In this document: positions 33,981-60,191 of the stretch, piece by piece
Numbering within the stretch: position 1 is the first letter of the stretch
Layout: every line of letters begins with the position of its first letter
Assembly: GCA_048887225.1 (NCBI GenBank)
Contig: JBHLJY010000006.1
Location: forward strand, 32,001-96,000
Direction: 5' to 3'
DNA length: 64,000 nt
Source of the DNA: Candidatus Hodarchaeota archaeon
GTDB lineage: Archaea; Asgardarchaeota; Lokiarchaeia; Sigyniarchaeales; SOKP01
Notes under the pieces: model-generated
The model's database searches: none
Seen by the model: only the letters and a program-made list of their open reading frames with translations
What the model was told of the DNA's origin: nothing
Position numbers and translations under genes: made by a program

Positions 33981-35225
33981 ATGAGTAGAAAAGTATGTGT
34001 AATTGGAATCGGGCATACAGATTTTAATTCCATGACTCCAGATGTTCAATGGAAAGAAATCATGTATGAAGCATGTAATAAAGCTTATGCCGATGCAGGA
34101 ATTGATGTTCGAAAAGATGTTGGTAGTTTCATTACCTGTGCTGAAGATTTCTGGGAAGGGTTTAGCATTTTTGATGAATTTGTTCCAGATCAAATTGGTG
34201 CATTATTGAGACCGTGTTGTACTGTATGTGGCGATGGACTTTATGGCTTAGGGAATGCCTACATGCAAATTATGACGGGATATTTTGATATTGTTGCGGT
34301 TGAAGCCCATAGTAAAGTCTCGGATTTGCTAACGTATGGAAACATTATACTTCATGCTTTTGATCCTAGATTTGAAAAACCAGTTACTGGTCCTGTTGAG
34401 AGACCCAATTATAAAGAGAGTCCAACCTATCCTCCTTCGAGTCCAAAACCTTTAATAGGAAGTTCGGACGAAAAAGAGAGAGTTCATCCTTATTTCTTGG
34501 CAGGTTTAGAAATGCAGCATTATTTGAAAACTACAGGTACTACTGAAGAACAATGTTCGTCTGTAGTGGTTAAGAACAAGAAAAATGCATTCTTTAATCC
34601 TTATGCTGACTACGAAGCAAAAATTTCTGTTGAAGATGTTATGAATTCAGAGTGCCTTTTCAAACCTTTAAAAAGTTTAGATATAAGTCCTAATGTTGAT
34701 GGAGCCATTTGCTTTGTCTTAGCTGACGACCAAACAGCTAAAAATTTAGGAATTGAGCCCATCTTTCTCTCCGGATTTGGATGGTGTTCAGAAACACCTT
34801 GGCTTGCAACTAGAGGTATGGATGCTCTATACGCGAAAGAAGCGGCTAAGATGGCATACAAAATGGCGGGAATTAAAGATCCTAAAAAAGAGATTTGTAT
34901 TGCGGAAGTTGATGATAGATTTTCATATAAAGAACTTCAACATCTCGAAGCTTTAGGTCTTGCAGAACCCGGAGAGGCAGGACAATTAGTAGAAGAGGGA
35001 GCATTGGACATTAATGGTTCACTTCCAACAAACATGTCGGGTGGAGCCTTAGGAGTGGGAAACTGTCTTGAAGCCACTGGATTACAAAAAGCTTTAGAAA
35101 TAGTCACACAGCTTAGAGGGCATGCCGCAAAGAGACAAATCTCAGATGTTGAGCGGGGAATTGCTCAATCTTGGCGTTTTCTTCCCTCTGGAAGCGGAGC
35201 AGTAGCGATATTTGAGAGAGGATAA
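33981..35225 (+). CDS. Thiolase-fold protein (SCP-x/Ltp-like, no nucleophilic Cys motif), cassette 1
   Basis: VKNKKNA..NP, DGA, NMSGG.LG.G; Pro-rich insertion. Confidence 0.85.
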   Translation: MSRKVCVIGIGHTDFNSMTPDVQWKEIMYEACNKAYADAGIDVRKDVGSFITCAEDFWEGFSIFDEFVPDQIGALLRPCCTVCGDGLYGLGNAYMQIMTGYFDIVAVEAHSKVSDLLTYGNIILHAFDPRFEKPVTGPVERPNYKESPTYPPSSPKPLIGSSDEKERVHPYFLAGLEMQHYLKTTGTTEEQCSSVVVKNKKNAFFNPYADYEAKISVEDVMNSECLFKPLKSLDISPNVDGAICFVLADDQTAKNLGIEPIFLSGFGWCSETPWLATRGMDALYAKEAAKMAYKMAGIKDPKKEICIAEVDDRFSYKELQHLEALGLAEPGEAGQLVEEGALDINGSLPTNMSGGALGVGNCLEATGLQKALEIVTQLRGHAAKRQISDVERGIAQSWRFLPSGSGAVAIFERG

Positions 35226-35232
35226 GGAGGTG
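35226..35232 (+). promoter_or_regulatory. Shine-Dalgarno GGAGGTG
   Basis: Upstream of ATG 35244; the same heptamer lies at 36931 and 43341 ahead of other internal operon genes. Confidence 0.65.
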
Positions 35233-35243
35233 CGAGAAAAAAG

Positions 35244-36407
35244 ATGAAAGATGTAGCAGTTATTGGAGCCGGCATGACTTTATTTCGTAGGCATTTAATG
35301 GAGACTGGCAAAGAACTCTCCTATTTGGCTACAAAAATGGCAATGGAAGATGCTGGTATTCAAAAGGATGATATTGATATGGTTGTTATGGGCTCTGCTC
35401 CAGATGCTTTTGACGGCATCCATATGAAAGGAGAAAATTTATTAGATGGAGCAGCTGCAGCGGGAAAACCATATGTTAGAGTATTCAATGGGGGAGGCAC
35501 TGGTGTATTTGCTCCAATTGCAGGATGGTGGCACGTTGCATCAGGCGTAGCTGACGTGTGTTTAGTTGTATGCGAAGAAAAAATGGGCAATACTTATCCT
35601 CATCCACAAACAGCTTTTAGACACATATGGGATCCAGTTTTAGATAGACCACTTAACCCTAATTTAGTGTGGTTGTTTGCTATGGAAATGAACCGGTATA
35701 TGACAGTCCATGGAATTAAAAAAGAAGATATAGCAAGAGTCGCAGTAAAGAATAAAAGAAATGCAGTAGGTCATCCATGTGCCCAGTTAGCAGATCCAAA
35801 CATTACAGTTGATGATGTCTTGAATTCTGAAATTATGGCGTGGCCTGTGCAGAGATTAGATATTAGTCCACCGAGCGATGGTGCCGCGGCATTAATATTT
35901 TGCAATAAAGACGTTGTACACAAATTCACAGATGAACGTATCTATGTTGCTAGCGTTGGATGGAGTATTGACAGTACAATGTGGACTAATCGAGATTTAT
36001 ACTTCCCTCGATATGTAGCGGAGGCTGCGAAAATGGCATATAAAAAAGCAGGAATTATAAACCCTCCAAAGGATATAGATTTTGCTGAACCTTATGATCC
36101 ATTTGATTATAAAGAATTGCATCACATGGAGGGGCTTTTACTCTGTGATAAAGGTGAAGCACCAATCCTTACGAGGGAGGGAGTTACCCAGCGAGATGGT
36201 GATTTACCAATATGTCCTTCAGGAGGGCTTTTAGGAGTAGGCAATCCTATTGCGGCGACAATGGGACAGAAAGTATGTGAATTATATTGGCAACTTGCAG
36301 GTAAAGCGGGGAAGAGACAAATCCCAGGTGATCCAAGAGTCGGCGTAGGGCAAGCGTGGGGTGATATAATGCAAATGGCTACCGTAATAGTATTAAGGAG
36401 GGAATAA
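35244..36407 (+). CDS. Thiolase-fold protein (Ltp3-like), cassette 1
   Basis: SAPDAFDG, GGGTG, SDGAAA, AEPYD, PSGGLLG.GNP. Confidence 0.88.
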   Translation: MKDVAVIGAGMTLFRRHLMETGKELSYLATKMAMEDAGIQKDDIDMVVMGSAPDAFDGIHMKGENLLDGAAAAGKPYVRVFNGGGTGVFAPIAGWWHVASGVADVCLVVCEEKMGNTYPHPQTAFRHIWDPVLDRPLNPNLVWLFAMEMNRYMTVHGIKKEDIARVAVKNKRNAVGHPCAQLADPNITVDDVLNSEIMAWPVQRLDISPPSDGAAALIFCNKDVVHKFTDERIYVASVGWSIDSTMWTNRDLYFPRYVAEAAKMAYKKAGIINPPKDIDFAEPYDPFDYKELHHMEGLLLCDKGEAPILTREGVTQRDGDLPICPSGGLLGVGNPIAATMGQKVCELYWQLAGKAGKRQIPGDPRVGVGQAWGDIMQMATVIVLRRE

Positions 36408-36411
36408 AAAA

Positions 36412-36945
36412 ATGGCAGAAGAGAGAAAAGATTGGCCGCCTTATGCTCCAGGCACTCATGTTAGGGAAAGTGATATTAGAGAAAAGAAAATTACATATAC
36501 ATGGTGGGAGCCTGAGGTTCAGTATAGTTGGAGCCTAGGTCCCGCAATGAGCAAATTTTTACAAGGTCTCAAAGCTGGAAAAATTATTGGGATAAATTGT
36601 AAACGATGTAAGCGAGTCATTGTACCTCCAAGAATGTTTTGCGAATATTGTTACGGACCTACAGAAGAATGGGTAGAATTAAAAGATACTGGAACTATAG
36701 AAACTTTCTCAATCTCATATCTAGACCCTGATGCAAGAAGAATTGAGGAACCTATTCTTGTTGGCGTAGTTTCCATTGATGGAGCTTCTCCTCAACATGG
36801 TTTCATGCACTATTTTGGAGAGATGACAAAGGAAGAGATTAAGATCGGCATGAAGGTCAAGGCAGTTTGGAAGCCAGAGAACGAGAGAGAAGGTTCCATA
36901 AATGATATAAAATATTTCAAACCTTTAAGAGGAGGTGAAATTTAA
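36412..36945 (+). CDS. DUF35 zinc-ribbon/OB-fold protein
   Basis: CKRC...PPR.FCEYC; IGMKVKAVW. Confidence 0.92.
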   Translation: MAEERKDWPPYAPGTHVRESDIREKKITYTWWEPEVQYSWSLGPAMSKFLQGLKAGKIIGINCKRCKRVIVPPRMFCEYCYGPTEEWVELKDTGTIETFSISYLDPDARRIEEPILVGVVSIDGASPQHGFMHYFGEMTKEEIKIGMKVKAVWKPENEREGSINDIKYFKPLRGGEI

Positions 36946-37424
36946 TGACATTCGGAGAAAAACAAACAGATCCGACATCCCCAATGCATTGGAGGGGAGA
37001 TATGCAAGCAGATTATTTCTATCCAAGCGGACTTGCTGGAGAAAAGTTTTTCAGACATTTAATGCAAATGGATACATTCTTAGCAACAAGATGTCCAAAA
37101 TGTATTAAAGTATTATTCCCACCAAGATTATATTGCGAGGATTGCTTTACAGAAATTACAGACAACGATTGGGCAGAAGTCCCAGCAGCCGGCACAGTTA
37201 GACTTTTCACAGTAGCAACCATTAACGCCCATGGAAAAAAAATGGAAAAACCAAAGATCATAGCACTTATTGATATAGAAAAAACAGATGGGGCAATGCT
37301 GGGAATAATTAAAACTAACGATTTAGAAAATGATTTTTGCGGTGTAAAGGTAAAGGCAGTGCTAAAGCCTAAAGAGAAAAGAGAAGGAACTGTAAAAGAT
37401 ATACTATACTTTGAAGTAGTGTAA
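36945..37424 (+). CDS. DUF35 zinc-ribbon/OB-fold protein
   Basis: CPKC..PPRLYCEDC; overlaps the upstream stop (taatg). Confidence 0.92.
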   Translation: MTFGEKQTDPTSPMHWRGDMQADYFYPSGLAGEKFFRHLMQMDTFLATRCPKCIKVLFPPRLYCEDCFTEITDNDWAEVPAAGTVRLFTVATINAHGKKMEKPKIIALIDIEKTDGAMLGIIKTNDLENDFCGVKVKAVLKPKEKREGTVKDILYFEVV

Positions 37425-37427
37425 TAA

Positions 37428-37470
37428 TCTTTTTTTTCCTTATATTTTTTTTCTTTCCTATTTTTTTATG
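37428..37470 (+). terminator. Oligo-T tract, probable archaeal terminator between convergent operons
   Basis: Several T7-8 runs right after the stop at 37424; A-runs at about 37478-37500 would serve the opposite strand. Confidence 0.45.
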
Positions 37471-37522
37471 TAGTTAATAAAAAGCAAATAAAAAAAAATA
37501 GTAGAACTAATAATTTTTTTAT

Positions 37523-38041
37523 TTATTCGATGCTACCTTCTTCTTTATTCAGTTCGATTCCTGGATCTTCGATTGGTTCGTAACAATCTATATCCATCCA
37601 TAAGCCCTTCCGCTCTTTAGCCCATACGACTTTTAGGGGCATTCCTATATAAACTGAATTGAAATCAACGTCCTCAGCCATATTATGAACCAACATAGTA
37701 TCCGACCCATCTTGCCGAACAGCTATAACTGGAAAGGGATGTTCTCTATTCTTATCATCTTCGTCGTAGTTTGCAGAACCAGTTGCTACTGAGGCTGTTT
37801 CAGGCAATCTAACCCATTGATCGGGTTTTACTAAACATCTTCCGCAAATTAGTCTTGGAGGAAAGGAAACTGTGTTGCATGATCTACACTTTAATCCTAG
37901 GATTATTCCATCCTTTAAACCTTTTAAAAATACTTTCGTCCTTGATAAATTAAACTTGTATTTATAAGACGTCAAATACCAATTTCCTTTCAATGTTCTT
38001 GTTTTTATATAATCTTTTTTAACATAAGCTGGTAGTGGCAT
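37523..38041 (-). CDS. DUF35 zinc-ribbon/OB-fold protein, cassette 2
   Basis: CRSC..PPRLICGRC; IGMPLKVVW. Confidence 0.9.
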   Translation of the reverse strand: MPLPAYVKKDYIKTRTLKGNWYLTSYKYKFNLSRTKVFLKGLKDGIILGLKCRSCNTVSFPPRLICGRCLVKPDQWVRLPETASVATGSANYDEDDKNREHPFPVIAVRQDGSDTMLVHNMAEDVDFNSVYIGMPLKVVWAKERKGLWMDIDCYEPIEDPGIELNKEEGSIE

Positions 38042-38055
38042 TTTCTTTTATCACC

Positions 38056-39312
38056 TCACCTAAATTTACGTTGTGGCTCATCTGCCATAACAACGTGTGT
38101 TATTAAATTTATTGCGCCCCCCCAACCATGTCCAAGAGCTGCATGAACTGTCTTAGGAACTTGATTTCCCGCTTTACCCATGATTTGTAAAGCAGATTCA
38201 GCAGGTCTTTCCATTGCCGAAGCTCCAATTGCGTTTGTAGCATTTACTCCTCCAGAACAGTTCACTGGTAGCTCACCATTTAATGCAGTAACTCCATTTT
38301 CATAAGCTTCAGGAGCAGTGTTTGGCTCAAATAGCCCAACTCTCTCCACCCATTGCAATTCTTGATTTGGAAAAGGAGAATACACTTCTGCGTAATCAAT
38401 TTCTTTGTTTGGGAAAGAAATTCCCGCTTGACTATAAGCAACCTCAGAAGATTTGACAGCGCCTAATTGTTCACAAGGGTCAATTTGTCCTGCTCCGCTA
38501 CAATCAACTCCTATTATAGCAGGTTCATTGGCATAACTAGCAACACCATTTACATAAACAGGAATGTCGGCTATTTGTTTTGCCTTATCTTCGGTAGTAA
38601 ATAATACAGCACATGCACCATCGGAGGCAGGACATACCATTCCAAATCTTAATGGAAACGAAATATATGGTGTATCTAACACATCTTCAATTGTAATAGT
38701 AGGCATCTTTAAGTGTGTCCACCAATTTTTTGCAGCATTTCTTCTATTTTGTACAACTACCCGAGCTAAGTCTTCTTCAGTGGCTTTACTTCTTCTCATA
38801 TAATTCATTGCCTGGTATGACGCAACGCCAATTGCAGCTCCAGCACCCATATTTCTCCTTAATCTATCGGTTTCATAGCCTAAACTTGGGAAAATGGATA
38901 ATTCGCCTAATGCCACAGTAGCTAATCCCAATGTCGTATTCCCACATGATTGTTGTTCGAAGGCAACTGCTAATACCATATCGTATAATCCTGAAGCTAT
39001 AGCATAATATCCAGAGATAAATACAGAACCGCCAGTTGTTCCACCAGTTGTAACCCTCAAAAGAGCTTTGTTCTTAGCAGCTATATGGTCTGTCATCCAT
39101 AATTCTGGCATATTTGCACCTTCAAAGGCAGGCATATTCCCATTTATTACACAATCAATATCATTCCACTCAACAGACTCAGCTTTACTTAAACAGTCTT
39201 CAACTGCCTCATTTACCAATTCCGCCATATTTACATCAGATCGCTTGGAAGCGTGTTCACAAAAACCACAACTTATTACTGCGGGTTGTACTTTAGCCAT
39301 TTTATTTTTCAC
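38056..39312 (-). CDS. Thiolase-fold protein (Ltp3-like), cassette 2
   Basis: KRSDVNMAELV, FEGANMPEL, TGGTTGGS, SDGACA, NCSGG..ATNAIGA. Confidence 0.88.
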   Translation of the reverse strand: MKNKMAKVQPAVISCGFCEHASKRSDVNMAELVNEAVEDCLSKAESVEWNDIDCVINGNMPAFEGANMPELWMTDHIAAKNKALLRVTTGGTTGGSVFISGYYAIASGLYDMVLAVAFEQQSCGNTTLGLATVALGELSIFPSLGYETDRLRRNMGAGAAIGVASYQAMNYMRRSKATEEDLARVVVQNRRNAAKNWWTHLKMPTITIEDVLDTPYISFPLRFGMVCPASDGACAVLFTTEDKAKQIADIPVYVNGVASYANEPAIIGVDCSGAGQIDPCEQLGAVKSSEVAYSQAGISFPNKEIDYAEVYSPFPNQELQWVERVGLFEPNTAPEAYENGVTALNGELPVNCSGGVNATNAIGASAMERPAESALQIMGKAGNQVPKTVHAALGHGWGGAINLITHVVMADEPQRKFR

Positions 39313-40435
39313 CTCCTTCTAACACATATATTATATTATTTTGAGCACAAAAGCCGACTTGTCCCGAAGCAATAGCTTTATTTGCTCCAGATACTTGATG
39401 TCCATCTGCATCACCTCGAATTTGTTTCACTGCCTCCATTATTCTTGTTAAACCATTTGCTGCAGGTGTATACCCTGCCATTGTTCCTCCTGAAGGATTA
39501 AGCTTTCCAGTGTCAATTAAAGAGATACCTTTCCCTTTATCGGCCAAACCCGCTGCTTCAGCCAAAATCAAATCTTCGCATGCGGTATGTCCAAAAAGTT
39601 CGGCTACATCAATTTCCCTTTTTGGATCTTTTATACCTGCTAATTTATATGCTCTTTCTGCAGCTTTTTCCATTGATAAACAACTGCTTAAATCTCTATC
39701 ACCTAAATAATATGTCTCATTGAAATGTCCTACACCAGTAACCCATACAGGCTTATCTGTTATTTTTAAAGCTTGTCTTTCTGGAGCGAGAATCACTGCT
39801 GTTATGCCATCACATAGGATTGGATACATTAATTCCCTTAAGGGGGTACTCAATACTTCGGAGTTTAACACATCAGCAACAGAAATATTCGGTTTTTTAG
39901 CTTCTGCTAATGCTAAGGGATTTTTAGCGGCATTTCTTAAATTATACGCAGCAACGTTAGCAATATCTTCTTCTGAAAGCCCAAAAGTATTTAAATAAGC
40001 CCTCATCTGCATAGCTCCTGCAGTATAACTATTTAAAAGATTAATTGGGCGATCAAACGTAGGATCATTTTCTAAAACTCGAACAGATTCGTATGGAAAA
40101 CAAGAGGGCATACTTAATCCGTAGATCATTGCCAATTTATGATTACCTGATAAGATTCTCATTAATCCATACATCATTGCGTGAGCTCCATCCATCTCAA
40201 CTTTACTTTCATCCTTCATATATGCTCCACTCGATTCTACTTTAAAACAATTTGAGATGGTTTTACCATCGTAATAATCGTTGGAGCATCCAATAACGGT
40301 TGATAAATCATCTCGTTTTAAGCCTGCATGATCTAATGCCCCTCGTGTTGCCTCAAAAAGCATCTCATAAGGGCTCATCATTTTATCCAAGTCGGGCTTT
40401 ACTTGATAAAAACCTACTACTCCTACTTTATCCAT
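39302..40435 (-). CDS. Thiolase-fold protein (Ltp4-like), cassette 2
   Basis: SNDYYDG, ESKVEMDGA, NPSGG, GQVGFCAQNN. Confidence 0.88.
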   Translation of the reverse strand: MDKVGVVGFYQVKPDLDKMMSPYEMLFEATRGALDHAGLKRDDLSTVIGCSNDYYDGKTISNCFKVESSGAYMKDESKVEMDGAHAMMYGLMRILSGNHKLAMIYGLSMPSCFPYESVRVLENDPTFDRPINLLNSYTAGAMQMRAYLNTFGLSEEDIANVAAYNLRNAAKNPLALAEAKKPNISVADVLNSEVLSTPLRELMYPILCDGITAVILAPERQALKITDKPVWVTGVGHFNETYYLGDRDLSSCLSMEKAAERAYKLAGIKDPKREIDVAELFGHTACEDLILAEAAGLADKGKGISLIDTGKLNPSGGTMAGYTPAANGLTRIMEAVKQIRGDADGHQVSGANKAIASGQVGFCAQNNIIYVLEGGEK

Positions 40436-40437
40436 CT

Positions 40438-40914
40438 TTAAGCACCTCCTATTGGCTCAAATCCTGCAATGTCGCTAGGGTGGCCCTTAATTCTTTTTGC
40501 CCAAACTATTTTTACTTTCATACCTATTTTTAAATCTTCTGGATTGACATTTAAAATTGGCACAATCATAGCATTATTTGCTCCATCAATTTGGACCAAT
40601 CCCACAATCTGATCCTTATTCACTTTTCTTGTTTTTCGCTCAGTAATTTTGTAATTTGTCGCCGTGAAATTCTTTAAGACGCCCGTTTCGGGTAAATCAA
40701 CAAAATCTTCAGCTTTTGCAAAGCAATAGCCACATCTATTTCTAGGTGGTAAAAAGACTTTTCCACATTTAGAACATTTGGTACCAATAAATTTCTTTTC
40801 TTGAAGTCCATAGTAGAATTTATCCATGACAACTCCGACCCAAAAATTGAATTCAGCACGTACCATACCTTTTGTGACATATATATCTTGTTCATCATCC
40901 AAATTTAATGACAA
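40438..40914 (-). CDS. DUF35 zinc-ribbon/OB-fold protein, cassette 2
   Basis: CSKC..PPRNRCGYC; IGMKVKIVW. Confidence 0.9.
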   Translation of the reverse strand: MSLNLDDEQDIYVTKGMVRAEFNFWVGVVMDKFYYGLQEKKFIGTKCSKCGKVFLPPRNRCGYCFAKAEDFVDLPETGVLKNFTATNYKITERKTRKVNKDQIVGLVQIDGANNAMIVPILNVNPEDLKIGMKVKIVWAKRIKGHPSDIAGFEPIGGA

Positions 40915-41088
40915 TATCTTTCACACTTTTATTTTTTTTTGATTTCTGAAAAATTGTTTAATAAATAATATTTTACATGTTCTATTATTTATAACTTTCA
41001 AAAATATATCTCGTTTTGGAGATTGAATTTAAAGAAAAAAAGAAAAATAATAAAAAAAATAGAAATTGGTTAGTGGAATTAATTCTTC

Positions 41089-41991
41089 TTAGTATACATC
41101 ACTTTTTAGTAAGTTAAAAATCTCTACTGTTTCTGCTGGAGTAGCAACTTCACGTCCTGCAATTTTTGCAACTTTTGCTGCCCATTCTACTTGCTCGTAA
41201 GAACCTTTAGCCAATGCACCATCAACTGTACGGATGTTATCTTCTAATCCAACTCTAATGTGTCCACCCATAGTAGCTGCACACATACCTGCTCGAAACT
41301 GATCTCTTGCTACACCACATACGCTCCATGAGGCATCTGGAGGTTTTAAAGCTAACAAATTAGCTAAATTTTGGAAAGAAAATGGAATTCCTCCTAGTAC
41401 TCCAAATACAAATTGAAAATGAAGGGGATGCTCGAACAAACCTTCTTGTTTATTAAGGAAAAGAACATTATACATACCCCCCATATCGTATATTTCTAAT
41501 TCTGGCTTTGTTCTCGCTCTTCTTATTCGTTTAGCAAACTTTTGAATCATAGAAAAATTGTTCTCAAAAACCAATGCGGGGGCAAGTGTTATCGTTCCTG
41601 TTTTATGATCTCCTACACTAAAATTCATAGAATTTGTATTTAATGAACAAAGAGGTGGTTTATAAGTTTCAACAGGTCGTATTCTTTGTTTTTCAGTTGC
41701 GACCGCACTGATAGCAGTACTTAAGTTAATTAAAAGATCTGGTGCCTTATCTTTTATATTATCTATTACAGCTTTTATAATATCCAATTCATGCGTAGGA
41801 ATTCCTTTTTCTGGGTCCCTTGCGTGAATATGAACAATTGAAGCGCCTGCATCATAGCATTTTTTTGCTTCGTTCCCAAACTCTTCTGCTGTATATGGAA
41901 CATTTTCATTTTGGCTTTTTAACGTTGCTGCGCCTGCTAAAGCGGCACTAATTACCAATTTATTTGACAAATCTGACACTTTTACTTTCAA
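41089..41991 (-). CDS. Beta-keto acid cleavage enzyme (BKACE/DUF849, Kce family)
   Basis: AGASIVHIHARD, PELEIYD, GGHIRVGLEDN. Confidence 0.93.
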   Translation of the reverse strand: MKVKVSDLSNKLVISAALAGAATLKSQNENVPYTAEEFGNEAKKCYDAGASIVHIHARDPEKGIPTHELDIIKAVIDNIKDKAPDLLINLSTAISAVATEKQRIRPVETYKPPLCSLNTNSMNFSVGDHKTGTITLAPALVFENNFSMIQKFAKRIRRARTKPELEIYDMGGMYNVLFLNKQEGLFEHPLHFQFVFGVLGGIPFSFQNLANLLALKPPDASWSVCGVARDQFRAGMCAATMGGHIRVGLEDNIRTVDGALAKGSYEQVEWAAKVAKIAGREVATPAETVEIFNLLKSDVY

Positions 41992-42194
41992 CCTATATAA
42001 TATATTTTCAATACTATTGATTATAATTTAAACTATTTTAATATATAAAATTTAAATGATTAAAAAAAATAATTCAAACTTTCTTTATATCCATTTGGAA
42101 AAAAATCAAATAAAAACATTATAATATAATCTGATTTAATTTATATCTATATTAGTAATCTATCTGAAATGAATGAAAATAATCTTAAAGAAGT

Positions 42195-43352
42195 GTGAAA
42201 ATGACAAATTTAGGTAAAGTAGCAATTGTAGGAGTAGCACAGACAAAATATGAAGAAGAAAAGATTGATCAACCCTACTCTGAATTAGTTTTCGAAGTTG
42301 TTAAGAAACTATACAACGAATTAGGATTAGCAAAAGAAGATATTGGCTGTGTTATTACTAGTTCCAACGATTTCAACGATGGGAGAACAATTGCTAATAT
42401 GGCAATTCAAGATGCTGTAGGATCAGTTAAGAAATCGGAATCAAGAGTTTCTGGGGATGGGGCTTTTGCGTATGTTTACGGTGCAATGAGAATACTTTCG
42501 GAAGAATACGATACTGTAATGGTTGTTTCACATACAAAATGCTCCGAAGTCAACCAATATTTAATAAATAATAGTATTTTTGATCCATATTATCAAAGAG
42601 CTTTAGGATTAGATCAAATCTCAGCAGCAGGATTAATGGCCAATATGTACATGAAAAAATATGGCGTAACTGAGGAACAAGCTGCCAAAATAGTTGTAAA
42701 AAATAGAAAAAATGCGTTAAATAATCCTTACGCTCATTTACAAAGAGAAGTTTCTATTGAAGATGTACTTAATTCACCTATGATAGCATATCCTCTTAAA
42801 GAACTTGATTTTCCACCTTTCTCTGACGGTGCGGTTGCAATACTCCTAACAAACGAAGAAAACGCTAAAAAATTTTCAGATAAACCAGTTTGGCTTAAAG
42901 GATACGGAAGTTGCACTGATGCATATTATCTCGGACATCGTAATATGACAGATTTAATCGGTTTGGAACTCGCTGCTAAGGAGGCGTATAAAATGGCGGG
43001 AATTAACAACCCAGTTAAAGAGATAGATGTAGCAGAAGTATACGACGCTTTTTCTGTCCATGAACTAATGAGCTATGAAGCCTTAGGACTCTGTGAAAAA
43101 GGAGAAGGCGGTAAATTCATTGATAGCGGCGAGACTCAAATGAATGGATCGATTCCTGTGAATCCCTCTGGAGGCGTTTTATCAGGCAATCCAACAATGG
43201 CTAATGGACTTATTCGAGTGGCTGAAATTGCTTTACAATTAATGGGTAAGGCTAATAAACGTCAAATTCCAGACGCAAAATTGGGATTAGCAAATGGTAT
43301 GAATGGTATTTGTTCCCAAGGAAATTGCGTACTTATACTTGGAGGTGAATAA
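42195..43352 (+). CDS. Thiolase-fold protein (Ltp4-like), cassette 3
   Basis: SSNDFNDGR, ESRVSGDGA, AEVYD, NPSGG, GICSQGN. Confidence 0.88.
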   Translation: MKMTNLGKVAIVGVAQTKYEEEKIDQPYSELVFEVVKKLYNELGLAKEDIGCVITSSNDFNDGRTIANMAIQDAVGSVKKSESRVSGDGAFAYVYGAMRILSEEYDTVMVVSHTKCSEVNQYLINNSIFDPYYQRALGLDQISAAGLMANMYMKKYGVTEEQAAKIVVKNRKNALNNPYAHLQREVSIEDVLNSPMIAYPLKELDFPPFSDGAVAILLTNEENAKKFSDKPVWLKGYGSCTDAYYLGHRNMTDLIGLELAAKEAYKMAGINNPVKEIDVAEVYDAFSVHELMSYEALGLCEKGEGGKFIDSGETQMNGSIPVNPSGGVLSGNPTMANGLIRVAEIALQLMGKANKRQIPDAKLGLANGMNGICSQGNCVLILGGE

Positions 43353-43355
43353 AAA

Positions 43356-44522
43356 ATGCCTAAGCATGATGTAGCAGTAGTAGGTATAGGTCAAACAAAA
43401 TATAGAAGTAAAAGAAGAGATGTTAACATTCCTGAGATGATTTACGAAGCAGTTAAGATGGCGCTTGACGATGCCAAACTCGAACCAAAAGATATAGATG
43501 CGATATTAATTGGAAATATGGATCATTTCGAAGGTGTCAATTTTTCTGAGATGTGGTGTGGAATTGATGCTGCCCCTGGATATCTTAAACCTGTAGTGAA
43601 AGTTGCAACTGGTGGAACTACAGGATCATCACTGGCAATATGTGGATACTATAATGTAGCATCAGGAATTTATAACAAGGTTCTAGTTGTAGGATGGGAA
43701 AAGTTAAATGAAGGTGGAGCAACCACTGGTATTATTACGGCATTCGATCCTGTATGGGAAAGACCATCTTTGGCAGGAGCACTAGGACCCCTTGCTCTTA
43801 TGGCAGGCATATATGCTGATAAGTATGGAATAACCTCAGAACAAGCAGCTAAAGTCACTGTTAAAAATCGTAGCAACGCTGCTAATAATCCATTCGCACA
43901 TTTACAAATGCCTAATATTACTATAGATTATGTTATGAGTTCACAAATGATATCTTATCCTTTAAGATTGCATGATGTTTGTCCTCAAAGCGAAGGTGCG
44001 TGTGCAGTTATTTATGCAAACGAGGAAGAAGCTAAAAAAATTACAGATAACCCAGCTTATTTCCACTCAGTAGCAACTGCTCATTATTACACTTTCGGTT
44101 GTGATGATTTAATGTACAACCTCCCTTCAGCAACAATTGCTTCTAAAAATGCGTATAAAAAGGCAGGAATTAAAAATCCTATAAAAGATTTGGATGTTGC
44201 TGAAATTTATGAACCCACAAGTTGGAGTGAATTAGCTTGGACAGAAGCCTTAGGATTTGCTGATTTTGGTCAAGGTGGAAGTTTATTAGATGAAGGAATT
44301 ACTCAAATTAGCGGAGAACTCCCCGTAAATCCTTCAGGAGGAGTTTTAAGCACTAATCCCATAGGCGCTACGGCATTAATCCGAGTGGCTGAAGCTGCAA
44401 CCCAAGTTATGGGTCGGGGTGGAAAACGACAAGTTCCTGATGCGGAAACTGCCTTATCCATGGGATTTGGTGGTAGTCTTTGGACTGAGCTTATGATATT
44501 AGGAAAAGAACCGTTGAGGTGA
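43356..44522 (+). CDS. Thiolase-fold protein (Ltp3-like), cassette 3
   Basis: GQTKYRSKRRDVN, FEG, TGGTTG, NPSGGVLSTNPIGA. Confidence 0.9.
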   Translation: MPKHDVAVVGIGQTKYRSKRRDVNIPEMIYEAVKMALDDAKLEPKDIDAILIGNMDHFEGVNFSEMWCGIDAAPGYLKPVVKVATGGTTGSSLAICGYYNVASGIYNKVLVVGWEKLNEGGATTGIITAFDPVWERPSLAGALGPLALMAGIYADKYGITSEQAAKVTVKNRSNAANNPFAHLQMPNITIDYVMSSQMISYPLRLHDVCPQSEGACAVIYANEEEAKKITDNPAYFHSVATAHYYTFGCDDLMYNLPSATIASKNAYKKAGIKNPIKDLDVAEIYEPTSWSELAWTEALGFADFGQGGSLLDEGITQISGELPVNPSGGVLSTNPIGATALIRVAEAATQVMGRGGKRQVPDAETALSMGFGGSLWTELMILGKEPLR

Positions 44523-58340: not shown

Positions 58341-58838
58341 TTACGCGCCTCCCTCGTATTCTGGTTTATTAATCCATGTTTCATATTCATCTTCGGGTAC
58401 AAAGAAGAAATCTGTCATTTTTCCTTCTCTTTCTTTCAAAAACACAGCCTTGACAACCCTGCCTTTCTTAATTTTCGATGGTACTAAGTTTTCCGAGAAA
58501 ATTCCTTGAAGTAAAGCGGTGTCGGCTCCATCCAATTTAACAAAAGCTATGCCATATGGGATTGCTTTTATAAAAGCTGAAGTTGTGTACCAAACGATTG
58601 TACTCACTTCTATCTTTCCCGTTTGCTTCATTTCAATCCAATTGGTAGGCTCATAACATTCAGAGCAGTTGATTCTTGGAGGCATCCACGTTTTTCCACA
58701 TTTGGTACATTTTGTACCTAGGAGTTTTTTGTTGTTTTTTACTTCGATAAAGAACTTCGATTGGCCGCCCATGGTGTATTTGTAGTTAATGGCGATCCTG
58801 TCTCGGATTTCATGTGATTGAAATTTATCGTCATTCAT
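58341..58838 (-). CDS. DUF35 zinc-ribbon/OB-fold protein, cassette 4
   Basis: CTKC..PPRINCSEC; LDGADT; ATGA overlap with the thiolase stop. Confidence 0.92.
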   Translation of the reverse strand: MNDDKFQSHEIRDRIAINYKYTMGGQSKFFIEVKNNKKLLGTKCTKCGKTWMPPRINCSECYEPTNWIEMKQTGKIEVSTIVWYTTSAFIKAIPYGIAFVKLDGADTALLQGIFSENLVPSKIKKGRVVKAVFLKEREGKMTDFFFVPEDEYETWINKPEYEGGA

Positions 58839-60191
58839 GGCTTCTTCAACCCCTCTTCATTTGCCATTACAATAACGGCTGCATAAGCGGCTCCTGGACC
58901 TCCGATCGAATGAGCAATGGACCGACCTTTTTCAATTGTGACTTGGTGTTTGCCAGCATCTCCTCTAATCTGAAGAGCGGCCTCTCCTGTGCTCATTATA
59001 CCAGTCGCGCCCACAGCATGTCCACAGCCAATTAAGCCTCCCGAAGGACAGCATGGCAATTCACCATTTAGCCAAGGACCTTCGCCGGGCTTTTCGAAAG
59101 AATTTTCAATCCAAGGACCGCCTTCTCCGAATGGTACAAAGCCTAATTCTTCATAAGAAATTACTTCTTGACCGCTAAACGCATCGTGGAGCTCTGCAAC
59201 ATCGATTTGTTCCTTAATCTTGTTGTAGTCGAGCCCTGCCATTTTATAAGCTGCTTTAGCAGCTTCAATGTTTGAATAAAGCCGACCAATGCTCTCTCTG
59301 TTTCCGATAAAACAATCTGTATTTGCAGCAGCGACTCCGGTTATCCATGTAGGCTTTTCCACGCCGAGTTCTTTTACTTTTTGTTCGTTTGCAAGGATTA
59401 ATGCGGCAGAAGCCTCGGAATAAAGACAGCAATCCAGGAGTTTGAAGGGATAACAGATAATTCTTGAGTACATAACGTCTTCGACGGTTACCTTCATTGG
59501 CGATTGAGCCTTTGGGTTGAGCAGAGCGTTCCCATGATTTTTAATGGAAACCATAGCCATATAAGCCAAAAGTTGAAAATATTCAACTGATTGTTTGCTC
59601 TTCGGTCGGGTTTCCAAATTCTTTGTAATGTGCATTTACCATAGAAACATATGAAGATGCCGCCATCATGCCCATAGGATATTTACGGAATATCGCGAAA
59701 TGCGAATTAAATTCTTTCATAAGTCATATCCGCAGAATAGGCAATGGCATTTAATACTTCTGGTGTTGTAACTCCTGTTTGCTAACGCTTTAAACTAAAT
59801 ATTTACAAGATTCGTCATAACAGTCGTTACATTTCTCCAAACCAATGCAGAGACACAAATCCGACAATCCAGATGCAACTTCAGCATAAGCCATTCTCAC
59901 AGTATAACCTCCCGTTGCTCCGCCCGACGCAATTCTCGTGCCAGGTTTGTCATTCATGCCAAGATAACTATTAGTAAATATATCGGGCATGAATTGGCGT
60001 TCAAAAAGCTCATTATAAATTCCATAAACCGTGGACTGCAAATCTTTATGTATAATCTCTGCCCCGTTTTTATTTGCATCATCAAGAGCCAATCTAGTGG
60101 CATCAAACGCCAGCTCAAAATACGTTTTATCAAGATACCTTGCTCTAAAAGGAGTAATGCCTACTCCGATTATCGCAACTCTATTTGGCAT
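58835..60191 (-). CDS. Thiolase-fold protein encoded in four exons (60191-59811, 59781-59716, 59681-59595, 59560-58835); 419 aa after removing three BHB introns
   Basis: Joined exons read ...CNDCYDE|QTGVTTPEVLNAIAYSADMTYE|YPMGMMAASSYVSMVNAHYKEFGNPTEEQ|MAMVSIKNHGNALLNPKAQ...; C-terminal AELHDAF and GHAVGATG motifs are intact. The two track ORFs (59790-60191, 58835-59635) are fragments of this gene. Confidence 0.85.
59561..59594 (-). other. Putative BHB intron 3 (34 nt)
   Basis: GAGC-AA|A-CAA...UUG-GCUU-AU|A: helix GAGC/GCUU, bulges AAA and AUA, internal AGUUGAA/UUCAACU stem; in-frame TGA. Confidence 0.8.
59682..59715 (-). other. Putative BHB intron 2 (34 nt)
   Basis: UAUG-AA|A-GAAU...AUUC-CGUA-AA|U: helix UAUG/CGUA, bulges AAA and AAU, internal UCGC/GCGA stem; in-frame TAA. 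Confidence 0.8.
59782..59810 (-). other. Putative BHB intron 1 (29 nt)
   Basis: GACG-AA|U-CUU...AAG-CGUU-AG|C-AAACAG: 4-bp helix GACG/CGUU, bulges AAU and AGC; in-frame TAA. Confidence 0.8.

What the first reader, a model, noticed from the sequence alone, without database searches (positions are those of the whole stretch)
59682..59715. Intron 2: unrelated sequence, same structure
It shares no evident primary sequence with introns 1 or 3, yet its 3' end (CGUA) complements its own upstream exon (UAUG). Site-specific complementarity at each insertion argues for selection on spliceability rather than random insertion or a repeated mobile element.
Basis: partly seen in the sequence, partly recalled or inferred. 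Interest (0 to 1): 0.7.

Follow-up and report, generated by a model that had tools for sequence, protein, structure and literature searches.

The report
tRNA-type mini-intron in Asgard thiolase gene
A 34-base insert that breaks a healthy thiolase-like gene of an Asgard archaeon has the RNA shape that tRNA-splicing enzymes cut and keeps it in related genomes, so the message is very probably spliced, which papers report in archaea only for cbf5.

Summary
Observation confirmed and interpretation supported. Window 59715..59682 (minus strand) is a true 34-nt insertion in a thiolase-fold gene (60191..58835). Removing it and two other inserts (29 and 34 nt) gives a 419-aa protein that aligns without gaps to uninterrupted orthologues in about 45 Promethearchaeota (Asgard) genomes.

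In the only protein-restoring register the RNA reads UAUG-AA|A-GAAU...AUUC-CGUA-AA|U. That is a 4-bp helix, two 3-nt bulges cut after their second base, and an inner stem. [quoted passage not shown]

The 4-bp helix alone is weak evidence (chance 0.03-0.07). The comparative data carry the case:
- The same intron sits at the same site in four other sequences. All 48 pair cells stay paired, four pairs change on both sides, and one changes U.G to C-G.
- About ten insert positions occur in this orthologue group, nearly all in BHB register.
- dN/dS is about 0.03 on the carrier's own branch.
- The genome has two EndA paralogues and RtcB.

The insert is unique in the genome and unrelated to introns 1 and 3. 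RNA evidence could not be obtained. This scan has already noted such mRNA mini-introns many times on other Asgard DNA. In the papers I could search, only cbf5 is documented.

The parts
58835..60191 (-). Thiolase-fold gene made of four exons and three mini-introns. It is the only copy of this orthologue in the genome.
   Evidence: The spliced 419-aa product is colinear with intact orthologues.
59811..60191 (-). Exon 1 (381 nt)
59782..59810 (-). Intron 1 (29 nt), a near-canonical hBHBh' motif: GACG AA|U ... CGUU AG|C
   Evidence: It is the MFE structure with 20-nt flanks; P(H) = 0.92.
59716..59781 (-). Exon 2, a 66-nt micro-exon. Its last 6 nt, UAUG+AA, form the central-helix strand plus two bulge bases.
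59682..59715 (-). Intron 2 (34 nt), the finding. It is phase 0 between GAA (Glu) and UAU (Tyr), has an in-frame UAA at 59709-59707, and its length is 3n+1.
59718..59721 (-). Central helix H, exon strand UAUG
59715..59717 (-). 5' bulge AA|A; predicted cut between 59716 and 59715
   Evidence: The cut rule (between the 2nd and 3rd bulge base) is from PMC2738675.
59688..59714 (-). Inner intron helix h', GAAU (59714-59711) paired with AUUC (59691-59688). It encloses the hairpin UCGC (59705-59702) / GCGA (59696-59693).
   Evidence: Compensatory changes are shown.
59684..59687 (-). Central helix H, intron strand CGUA
59681..59683 (-). 3' bulge AA|U; predicted cut between 59682 and 59681
59595..59681 (-). 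Exon 3, an 87-nt micro-exon
59561..59594 (-). Intron 3 (34 nt): GAGC AA|A ... GCUU AU|A, with a 7-bp hairpin
58835..59560 (-). Exon 4 (726 nt including the stop codon)
58341..58838 (-). Downstream DUF35/ChsH2-type zinc-ribbon plus OB-fold gene. Its start overlaps the thiolase stop (ATGA).

Best explanation
Intron 2 is an archaeal BHB intron inside a protein-coding mRNA of a Promethearchaeota (Asgard) archaeon.

**Proposed mechanism (inferred)**
1. In the pre-mRNA, the last exon bases UAUG pair with CGUA near the intron's 3' end.
2. The intron's own stem (GAAU/AUUC plus a UCGC/GCGA hairpin) stacks on this helix. This leaves two 3-nt bulges, AAA and AAU, on opposite strands.
3. The splicing endonuclease EndA, here a two-paralogue and probably (alpha-beta)2 enzyme, cuts after the second base of each bulge.
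4. RtcB joins the exons to give ...UAU GAA|UAU CCU... (MTYE|YPMG). The intron is released, probably as a circle.

**Consequence.** Unspliced RNA meets a UAA and a frameshift, so intron 2 and the other two introns must all be removed to make the 419-aa enzyme.

**What is shown:** the insertion, the exact register, the covariation, the purifying selection, and the presence of the enzymes.

**What is inferred:** the cleavage and ligation in vivo.
For: 1. **True insertion.** About 45 orthologues at 82-96% aa identity are uninterrupted and gap-free against the spliced product.
2. **Register.** Of the three boundary placements that restore the protein, only one has H = 4/4 and h' = 4. That one puts both cuts after the 2nd bulge base, as in cbf5 (PMC2738675).
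3. **Orthologous introns.** The same site is occupied in L099, L217-219 (three metagenomes) and L065.
   - 48/48 pair cells are paired, against 17-60% when the 3' partners are slid.
   - Four pairs change on both sides.
   - The central helix varies U.G/C-G through a synonymous Tyr codon change.
4. **Other inserts in the same gene family.** The orthologue group carries 29-35-nt inserts at about 10 positions in many independent assemblies. Eight classes have H = 4/4 and two have 3/4 in the protein-restoring register, against a 2.6% chance per register.
5. **Selection.** dN/dS is 0.026-0.030 on G000's own branch with dS about 1, and all exons are open.
6. **Single copy.** This is the only copy of the orthologue in the genome.
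7. **Enzymes.** Two EndA paralogues are present. One has the catalytic-type Y/H/K pattern by my reading and matches the C-terminal repeat of fused EndA. The other matches the N-terminal repeat and weakly the beta subunit. RtcB is also present. Asgard EndA is reported as (alpha-beta)2 with the L1 loop that gives broad specificity (PMC5829648).
8. **Intron-rich genome.** Aragorn finds introns in 15 of 32 tRNA genes, and RtcB's own gene has a 29-nt BHB insert.
Against:
- The outer exon-exon helix is absent (h = 1), so this is a relaxed motif.
- In G000 the BHB is the MFE fold only with 8-nt flanks. The probability of the central helix is 0.02-0.09 with 12-20-nt flanks and 0.75 with 40-nt flanks.
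- The fold energy is not better than shuffles, z = -0.28.
- The 4-bp helix alone arises by chance in 3-7% of cases.
- Only four distinct sequences support the covariation, and all double changes come from one of them (L065).
Confidence: 0.85

Rival explanations
1. Decaying pseudogene: the three inserts are disabling insertions in a gene that no longer makes protein, and the BHB-like shape is coincidental.
For: The inserts carry stops and frameshifts. G000 has the longest terminal branch in its clade. At least 13 thiolase paralogues could cover a loss.
Against: - dN/dS is about 0.03 with dS about 1 on G000's own branch, and there is no other stop or frameshift in 1257 nt of exons.
- The same intron persists in at least 4 other lineages with intact exons and compensatory changes.
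- The paralogues are only about 30% identical to this gene.
- All three inserts fit the cut register.
Confidence: 0.03
2. The insert stays in the mRNA and the ribosome bypasses it (translational hopping, as in T4 gene 60 or the mitochondrial 'byp' elements), or the cell recodes around it.
For: The insert is about the size of known bypassed gaps (27-55 nt; my own knowledge), contains a hairpin, and has a stop soon after the take-off region.
Against: - No matching take-off and landing codons exist. Exon 2 ends in GAA, but the triplet before the resumption site is AAA. Introns 1 and 3 give GAA versus UAG and CAA versus UAU (read).
- A UAU-to-UAU hop would drop two conserved residues (E, Y) that all orthologues keep.
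- The covariation follows BHB pairs, including exon-intron pairs, which bypassing does not require.
Confidence: 0.02
3. Assembly or sequencing artefact in a metagenome-assembled genome, for example a chimeric join or indel noise.
For: The genome is a 49-contig MAG with 4.3% estimated contamination.
Against: Homologous 31-34-nt inserts sit at exactly this site in independent assemblies: one MAG and four metagenome contigs from different projects. Neighbouring genes are intact. The inserts are structured, not homopolymer indels.
Confidence: 0.01
4. A real RNA-level intron that is removed by some machinery other than EndA/RtcB, or a mobile mini-element that merely mimics the BHB shape and spreads between lineages.
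For: - The distribution on the exon tree is patchy: 3 carriers among 13 leaves of the clade, plus the distant L065.
- The intron is 88-91% identical between G000 and L099/L217, while third codon positions are about 50% identical.
- Third-position identity is raised in the two flanking micro-exons among carriers, 0.69 versus 0.51.
Against: - Both cut sites fall at the EndA positions in all classes.
- There is no second copy in the genome.
- Stems are invariant and loops diverged between G000 and L217, as selection on structure predicts.
- No other endonuclease/ligase system for such motifs is known in archaea (my own knowledge).
Confidence: 0.07

Closest known systems
BHB intron in the cbf5 (pseudouridine synthase) pre-mRNA of Crenarchaeota (Watanabe 2002; Yoshinari 2006; Yokobori 2009, PMC2738675)
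   Same: - A short intron inside an archaeal coding sequence.
- Often a relaxed BHB motif.
- Cuts between the 2nd and 3rd bulge bases coincide with the frame-restoring junction.
- The host has a hetero-oligomeric EndA.
- Gain and loss among related species.
   Different: - A different gene (a metabolic thiolase-fold enzyme) and a different phylum (Promethearchaeota/Asgard).
- Three introns in one gene, separated by 66- and 87-nt micro-exons.
- About ten alternative intron positions in one orthologue group.
- Splicing is not yet shown by cDNA here.
Non-canonical BHB introns of archaeal tRNA genes, abundant in some Asgard classes (Marck & Grosjean 2003; bioRxiv 10.64898/2026.10.13.758758)
   Same: - The same motif geometry and the same predicted enzymes.
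- A similar size range.
- Repeated gains and patchy distribution.
[quoted passage not shown]
   Different: The host RNA is an mRNA, so the exon half of the motif must also encode protein. Here only the synonymous UAU/UAC position of the helix varies. No tRNA scaffold helps recognition.
BHB intron in the 5' UTR of Haloferax volcanii HVO_1309 (PMC7714728)
   Same: An mRNA substrate of the splicing endonuclease, shown there by circRNA-seq and in vitro cleavage.
   Different: That intron lies in the untranslated leader and does not interrupt the reading frame. Haloferax also has a homodimeric EndA.
IRE1/RtcB splicing of XBP1/HAC1 mRNA in eukaryotes
   Same: It works alike: a short frame-shifting intron (26 nt in XBP1) is removed from an mRNA by a protein endonuclease that recognises stem-loops, and the exons are joined by RtcB, so that translation of the full protein depends on splicing (my own knowledge; PMC13149111 lists it as spliceosome-independent splicing).
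   Different: The endonuclease (IRE1) and the recognition motif are different, and that system is regulated by stress. No regulation is shown here.

Membership tests
Archaeal BHB intron (EndA/RtcB-spliced) | [quoted passage not shown] | tested here: met
   The RNA reads UAUG/CGUA with bulges AAA and AAU. It is the MFE fold with 8-nt flanks. The helix is kept in 4 distinct orthologous introns.
Archaeal BHB intron (EndA/RtcB-spliced) | Cuts between the 2nd and 3rd bulge bases give exactly the frame-restoring exon junction | tested here: met
   Of the 3 junction placements that give MTYE|YPMG, only the one in this register has H = 4/4 and h' = 4. The cut rule is quoted from PMC2738675.
Archaeal BHB intron (EndA/RtcB-spliced) | Flanking helices on both sides (canonical hBHBh') | tested here: not met
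   The inner helix h' is present (4 bp plus a 4-bp hairpin). The outer exon helix h is only 1 bp, or irregular. This makes it a relaxed HBh'-type motif. Such motifs are accepted by (alpha-beta)2 and epsilon2 EndAs according to PMC5829648, so the intron fits the relaxed class, not the strict one.
Archaeal BHB intron (EndA/RtcB-spliced) | The host encodes a splicing endonuclease of broad specificity and an RtcB ligase | tested here: met
   There are two 201-aa EndA paralogues above the Pfam/TIGR cut-offs. One resembles the catalytic repeat and one the structural repeat. RtcB is present. The L1 specificity loop itself was not examined.
Archaeal BHB intron (EndA/RtcB-spliced) | Structure maintained by selection (covariation) in homologous introns | tested here: met
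   48/48 cells are paired. Four pairs have changes on both sides and one has a one-sided change. Only 1/500 shuffles reach the observed values, and slid controls pair 17-60%. The sample is small: 4 sequences.
Archaeal BHB intron (EndA/RtcB-spliced) | Excision observed in RNA (spliced junction, circular intron) | not testable with these tools
No full-length protein at 95% identity or more was found in the large protein collection.
Translational bypass element (T4 gene 60 / mitochondrial byp) | Matching take-off and landing codons flanking the gap | tested here: not met
   The take-off codon is GAA and the triplet before resumption is AAA. Introns 1 and 3 also have no match (sequence read).
Pseudogene | Relaxed selection and accumulating lesions in the exons | tested here: not met
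   dN/dS is 0.026-0.030 on the carrier branch, and there are no extra stops or frameshifts.

The most novel reading that the evidence does not exclude
Intron 2 may be one visible member of a dynamic population of tRNA-type mini-introns in Promethearchaeota protein-coding genes. These would be gained, lost and perhaps moved between lineages by reverse splicing or gene conversion. They would hit neighbouring codons repeatedly: sites one codon apart occur at three places in this gene. Expression of many enzymes, including the RtcB ligase itself, would then depend on EndA/RtcB splicing. This would be a prokaryotic, protein-enzyme-based form of split genes in the closest archaeal relatives of eukaryotes, and possibly a regulatory layer.
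Probability: 0.35. Interest if true: 0.9.

Novelty: new variant of a known kind. Interest (0 to 1): 0.7.

Why it matters
Papers I could search document endonuclease-spliced introns inside an archaeal coding sequence for one gene only, cbf5 in Crenarchaeota. PMC7714728 says so explicitly.

Here a metabolic gene of an Asgard archaeon needs three such splicing events. Its orthologues across Promethearchaeota carry about ten alternative intron positions. Coding and splice-motif constraints are superimposed on the same bases.

If confirmed by RNA data, several things follow:
- mRNA splicing by the tRNA machinery is a regular part of gene expression in the archaeal lineage nearest to eukaryotes.
- Gene callers systematically truncate or split such genes. 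The collection holds 229-277-aa fragments of this protein.
- Intron gain and loss can be studied in a prokaryote with dense comparative data.

This scan has already flagged the same phenomenon many times on other Asgard DNA. This finding therefore adds a well-controlled case with covariation, not a first sighting.

Tried and rejected
2. **Genome-wide census of BHB introns in G000.** I combined an ORF-joining criterion with BHB geometry and shifted-register controls.
   - Counts were 558 against about 506 in controls for h' >= 3, so the background from adjacent genes swamps any signal.
   - A paralogue-spanning filter gave 33 against 21-40 in controls.
   - The design also excludes micro-exons, so it misses this very gene. 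The census is uninformative and I dropped it.
3. **Metagenome pattern scan for site-2 inserts.** The pattern was too loose. Only 2 of 120 returned stretches were thiolase orthologues, though both were useful.
4. **Search of the large protein collection** for a contiguous protein identical to G000's exons, as a proxy for a spliced transcript. The best hit was 90% identical, so this is not informative.
5. **Rfam and ARAGORN on the window.** Neither found anything.
6. **Rejected readings:** pseudogene, ribosomal bypass, assembly artefact, repeated mobile element. See the rival explanations.
7. **Spliceosomal-type or self-splicing intron.** There are no GU...AG ends, and 34 nt is far too short for group I or II (read; my own knowledge).

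Full report
**What is there**

The finding lies in a minus-strand thiolase-fold gene, window 60191..58835. In six-frame translation the gene is broken into four frame segments. Pfam recognises the C-terminal thiolase domain. The next gene downstream is a DUF35/ChsH2-type zinc-ribbon/OB protein.

Removing three stretches gives one 419-aa reading frame:
- 59810-59782 (29 nt)
- 59715-59682 (34 nt, the finding)
- 59594-59561 (34 nt)

The window is contig 6 of a 3.27-Mb, 49-contig, 30% G+C genome. Records carrying the orthologues are titled Promethearchaeota, Promethearchaeia or Hermodarchaeota, which are Asgard archaea.

**Is it a real insertion?**

Yes. A search of 40 related genomes and of one-genome-per-species contigs gave 55 distinct orthologues at 82-96% protein identity. 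Most are uninterrupted and align to the spliced G000 product residue for residue with no gaps. For example, L002 covers 1-419 over an alignment length of 419 at 96% identity. In the DNA alignment the 34 nt stand as a clean block between ...ACU UAU GAA and UAU CCU AUG G.... G000 has no second copy of this orthologue; the next best match is a 33%-identical paralogue.

**The observation itself**

- CGUA (59687-59684) does complement UAUG (59721-59718).
- The insert is not similar to inserts 1 or 3 beyond shuffled controls.
- It occurs nowhere else in the genome.
- The 4-bp match alone is weak: 2.6% of random positions, and 7% of shuffled inserts when boundary sliding is allowed. With the adjacent inner stem the figure is about 0.15%.

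**Geometry**

Three boundary placements restore MTYE|YPMG. Only one has all four central pairs plus a 4-bp inner stem. It reads UAUG AA|A GAAU ... AUUC CGUA AA|U, so both cuts fall after the second base of a 3-nt bulge. This is the rule reported for cbf5 introns (PMC2738675).

- Inside the intron, UCGC/GCGA forms a further hairpin.
- The outer exon-exon helix is practically absent, so this is a relaxed (HBh'-like) motif.
- Introns 1 and 3, in contrast, fold as textbook hBHBh' in the MFE structure with 20-nt flanks.
- In G000 the intron-2 motif is thermodynamically marginal. It is the MFE fold only with 8-nt flanks. The central-helix probability is 0.02-0.09 with 12-20-nt flanks and 0.75 with 40-nt flanks. 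The z-score is -0.28.

**Comparative test of intron 2**

The same site (GAA|UAU) is occupied in:
- a marine-sediment contig (L099, 34 nt, 4 substitutions)
- three JGI metagenome contigs (L217-219, 34 nt)
- MAG 9R3_44 (L065, 31 nt, hairpin sequence replaced)

On the alignment of the four distinct sequences, all 48 pair cells of the central helix, inner stem and hairpin are standard pairs. With the 3' partners slid, only 17-60% pair. Four pairs changed on both sides: G-C to A-U in the inner stem, and three pairs in the hairpin. The central helix varies U.G (G000) to C-G (the three others) through the synonymous Tyr codon UAU/UAC.

UAC occurs in 3 of 4 carriers but in only 7 of 53 non-carriers (plus). 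This is a hint only, because the carriers are related. With C-G the central helix has probability 0.5-0.99 in every flank context tested, and at least 0.8 in all but one.

**The wider pattern in this gene**

A motif-free look at the orthologue alignment shows 29-35-nt inserts at about ten positions: codons about 126, 127 (two sites one codon apart), 148/149 (two sites one codon apart), 152, 178, 180, 307 and 308. They occur in many independent assemblies. In the protein-restoring register, eight classes have 4/4 central pairs and two have 3/4. With a per-register chance of 2.6%, this cannot be coincidence. Phases vary (0, 1 and 2), so 'phase 0 after NAA' is not a rule. The bulges are simply A/U-rich.

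**Selection**

On G000's own branch dN is about 0.030 and dS about 1.0-1.2, so dN/dS is 0.026-0.030. No additional lesion is seen in 1257 nt of exons. A gene disabled by three frameshifting inserts would not look like this.

**Machinery**

G000 encodes two 201-aa EndA paralogues.
- One has the Y/H/K catalytic pattern by my reading and matches the C-terminal, catalytic repeat of fused EndAs.
- The other matches the N-terminal repeat and weakly the beta subunit.

This agrees with the (alpha-beta)2, broad-specificity enzyme reported for Asgard archaea (PMC5829648). RtcB is present. Aragorn finds only 32 tRNA genes, 15 of them with introns. This fits the intron-rich Asgard classes described in bioRxiv 10.64898/2026.10.13.758758.

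**History**

On the exon tree the intron-2 class is patchy. G000 carries it, but its sisters L002-L005 do not. L099 and L217 carry it, but L007, L010 and L017 do not. The distant L065 also carries it. Between G000 and L217 the stems are identical and the loops diverged, while third codon positions are about 50% identical. In the two flanking micro-exons, third-position identity is 0.69. An old intron with many precise losses and lateral spread by recombination both remain possible.

**Rivals**

The following are each contradicted by specific tests (see the rival and membership sections):
- pseudogene
- ribosomal bypass
- assembly artefact
- repeated mobile element
- spliceosomal or self-splicing intron

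**What is missing**

**Comparison with what is known**

In the searchable literature, a BHB intron within an archaeal coding sequence is documented for cbf5 of Crenarchaeota, and a BHB intron in a 5' UTR for Haloferax HVO_1309. PMC7714728 states that cbf5 is the only other case.

Intron 2 works like those and like non-canonical tRNA introns. It differs in host lineage and host gene, in the multiplicity of introns (three per gene, separated by micro-exons), and in the polymorphism of positions.

Earlier notes of this scan report the same kind of mini-intron in other genes of this genome and in many other Asgard genomes. One follow-up claims RNA support in another genome. I did not test those claims. 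Independently, I found a further case in this genome in the RtcB gene.

**Verdict**

This is a relaxed BHB intron in an Asgard mRNA, with confidence about 0.85 pending RNA evidence. It is a new variant of a known kind.

Noticed in passing
G000 contig C13:33459-33487 (+), outside the window; locus L022 about 1474-1502: The RtcB RNA-ligase gene is itself split by a 29-nt BHB insert: UUGG AU|A CAUAAAAG..CUUUUAUG CCAA AA|A. It has H = 4/4 and an inner stem of about 8-9 bp. Excision restores GGVGY|DINCG. The same insert, with a U-A to U.G change in the stem, is in same-genus genome G002. The other 26 relatives with a match have uninterrupted RtcB frames (377-536 aa; some are cut by contig ends). 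So the ligase presumably needed for this splicing needs splicing itself.
   Followed up: partly
L011 and L159, site 2 region (orthologues of window about 59660-59730): Two mini-introns lie only 16 nt apart, one at UAU|GAA and one after UGGGAA. This leaves a 16-nt micro-exon, GAAUAUCCGAUGGGAA, whose ends both take part in BHB motifs.
   Followed up: partly
Orthologue alignment of window 58835-60191: There are about ten intron positions in one orthologue group. They cluster in codons 126-181 and 307-308. Three pairs of sites lie only one to a few codons apart (b1/b2, c1/c2, e/f, g/h). This suggests hot spots or intron sliding. It is unexplained.
   Followed up: partly
window 59595-59781 (exons 2 and 3) compared with L217/L099: Between G000 and other intron-2 carriers, third-codon-position identity is 0.65-0.69 in the two micro-exons flanking intron 2, against about 0.5 elsewhere. 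Against the intron-less sister L002 it is 0.49. This may be a recombination tract or a structural constraint on synonymous sites. The sample is small (51 codons).
   Followed up: no
window about 33981-44510 (G000 C6:65981-76510): Six further thiolase-fold paralogues, 28-33% identical to this gene, are clustered in the same window. None is interrupted in the tblastn hits.
   Followed up: no
L037 (DATKTP010000175.1): A contig carrying a 91%-identical orthologue of this Asgard gene is deposited under a bacterial name (Candidatus Deferrimicrobium sp.). It is probably a mis-binned contig.
   Followed up: no
whole genome G000: Aragorn finds only 32 tRNA genes, 15 with introns of 8-268 nt. Many tRNA genes are presumably missed because of multiple or non-canonical introns.
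   Followed up: no
protein collection hits P0002, P0018, P0023, P0024, P0030: Gene callers have deposited 229-277-aa 'thiolase' fragments that begin just after mini-introns. For example, P0002 equals exon 4 of L217-219. Such introns therefore cause systematic mis-annotation.
   Followed up: partly
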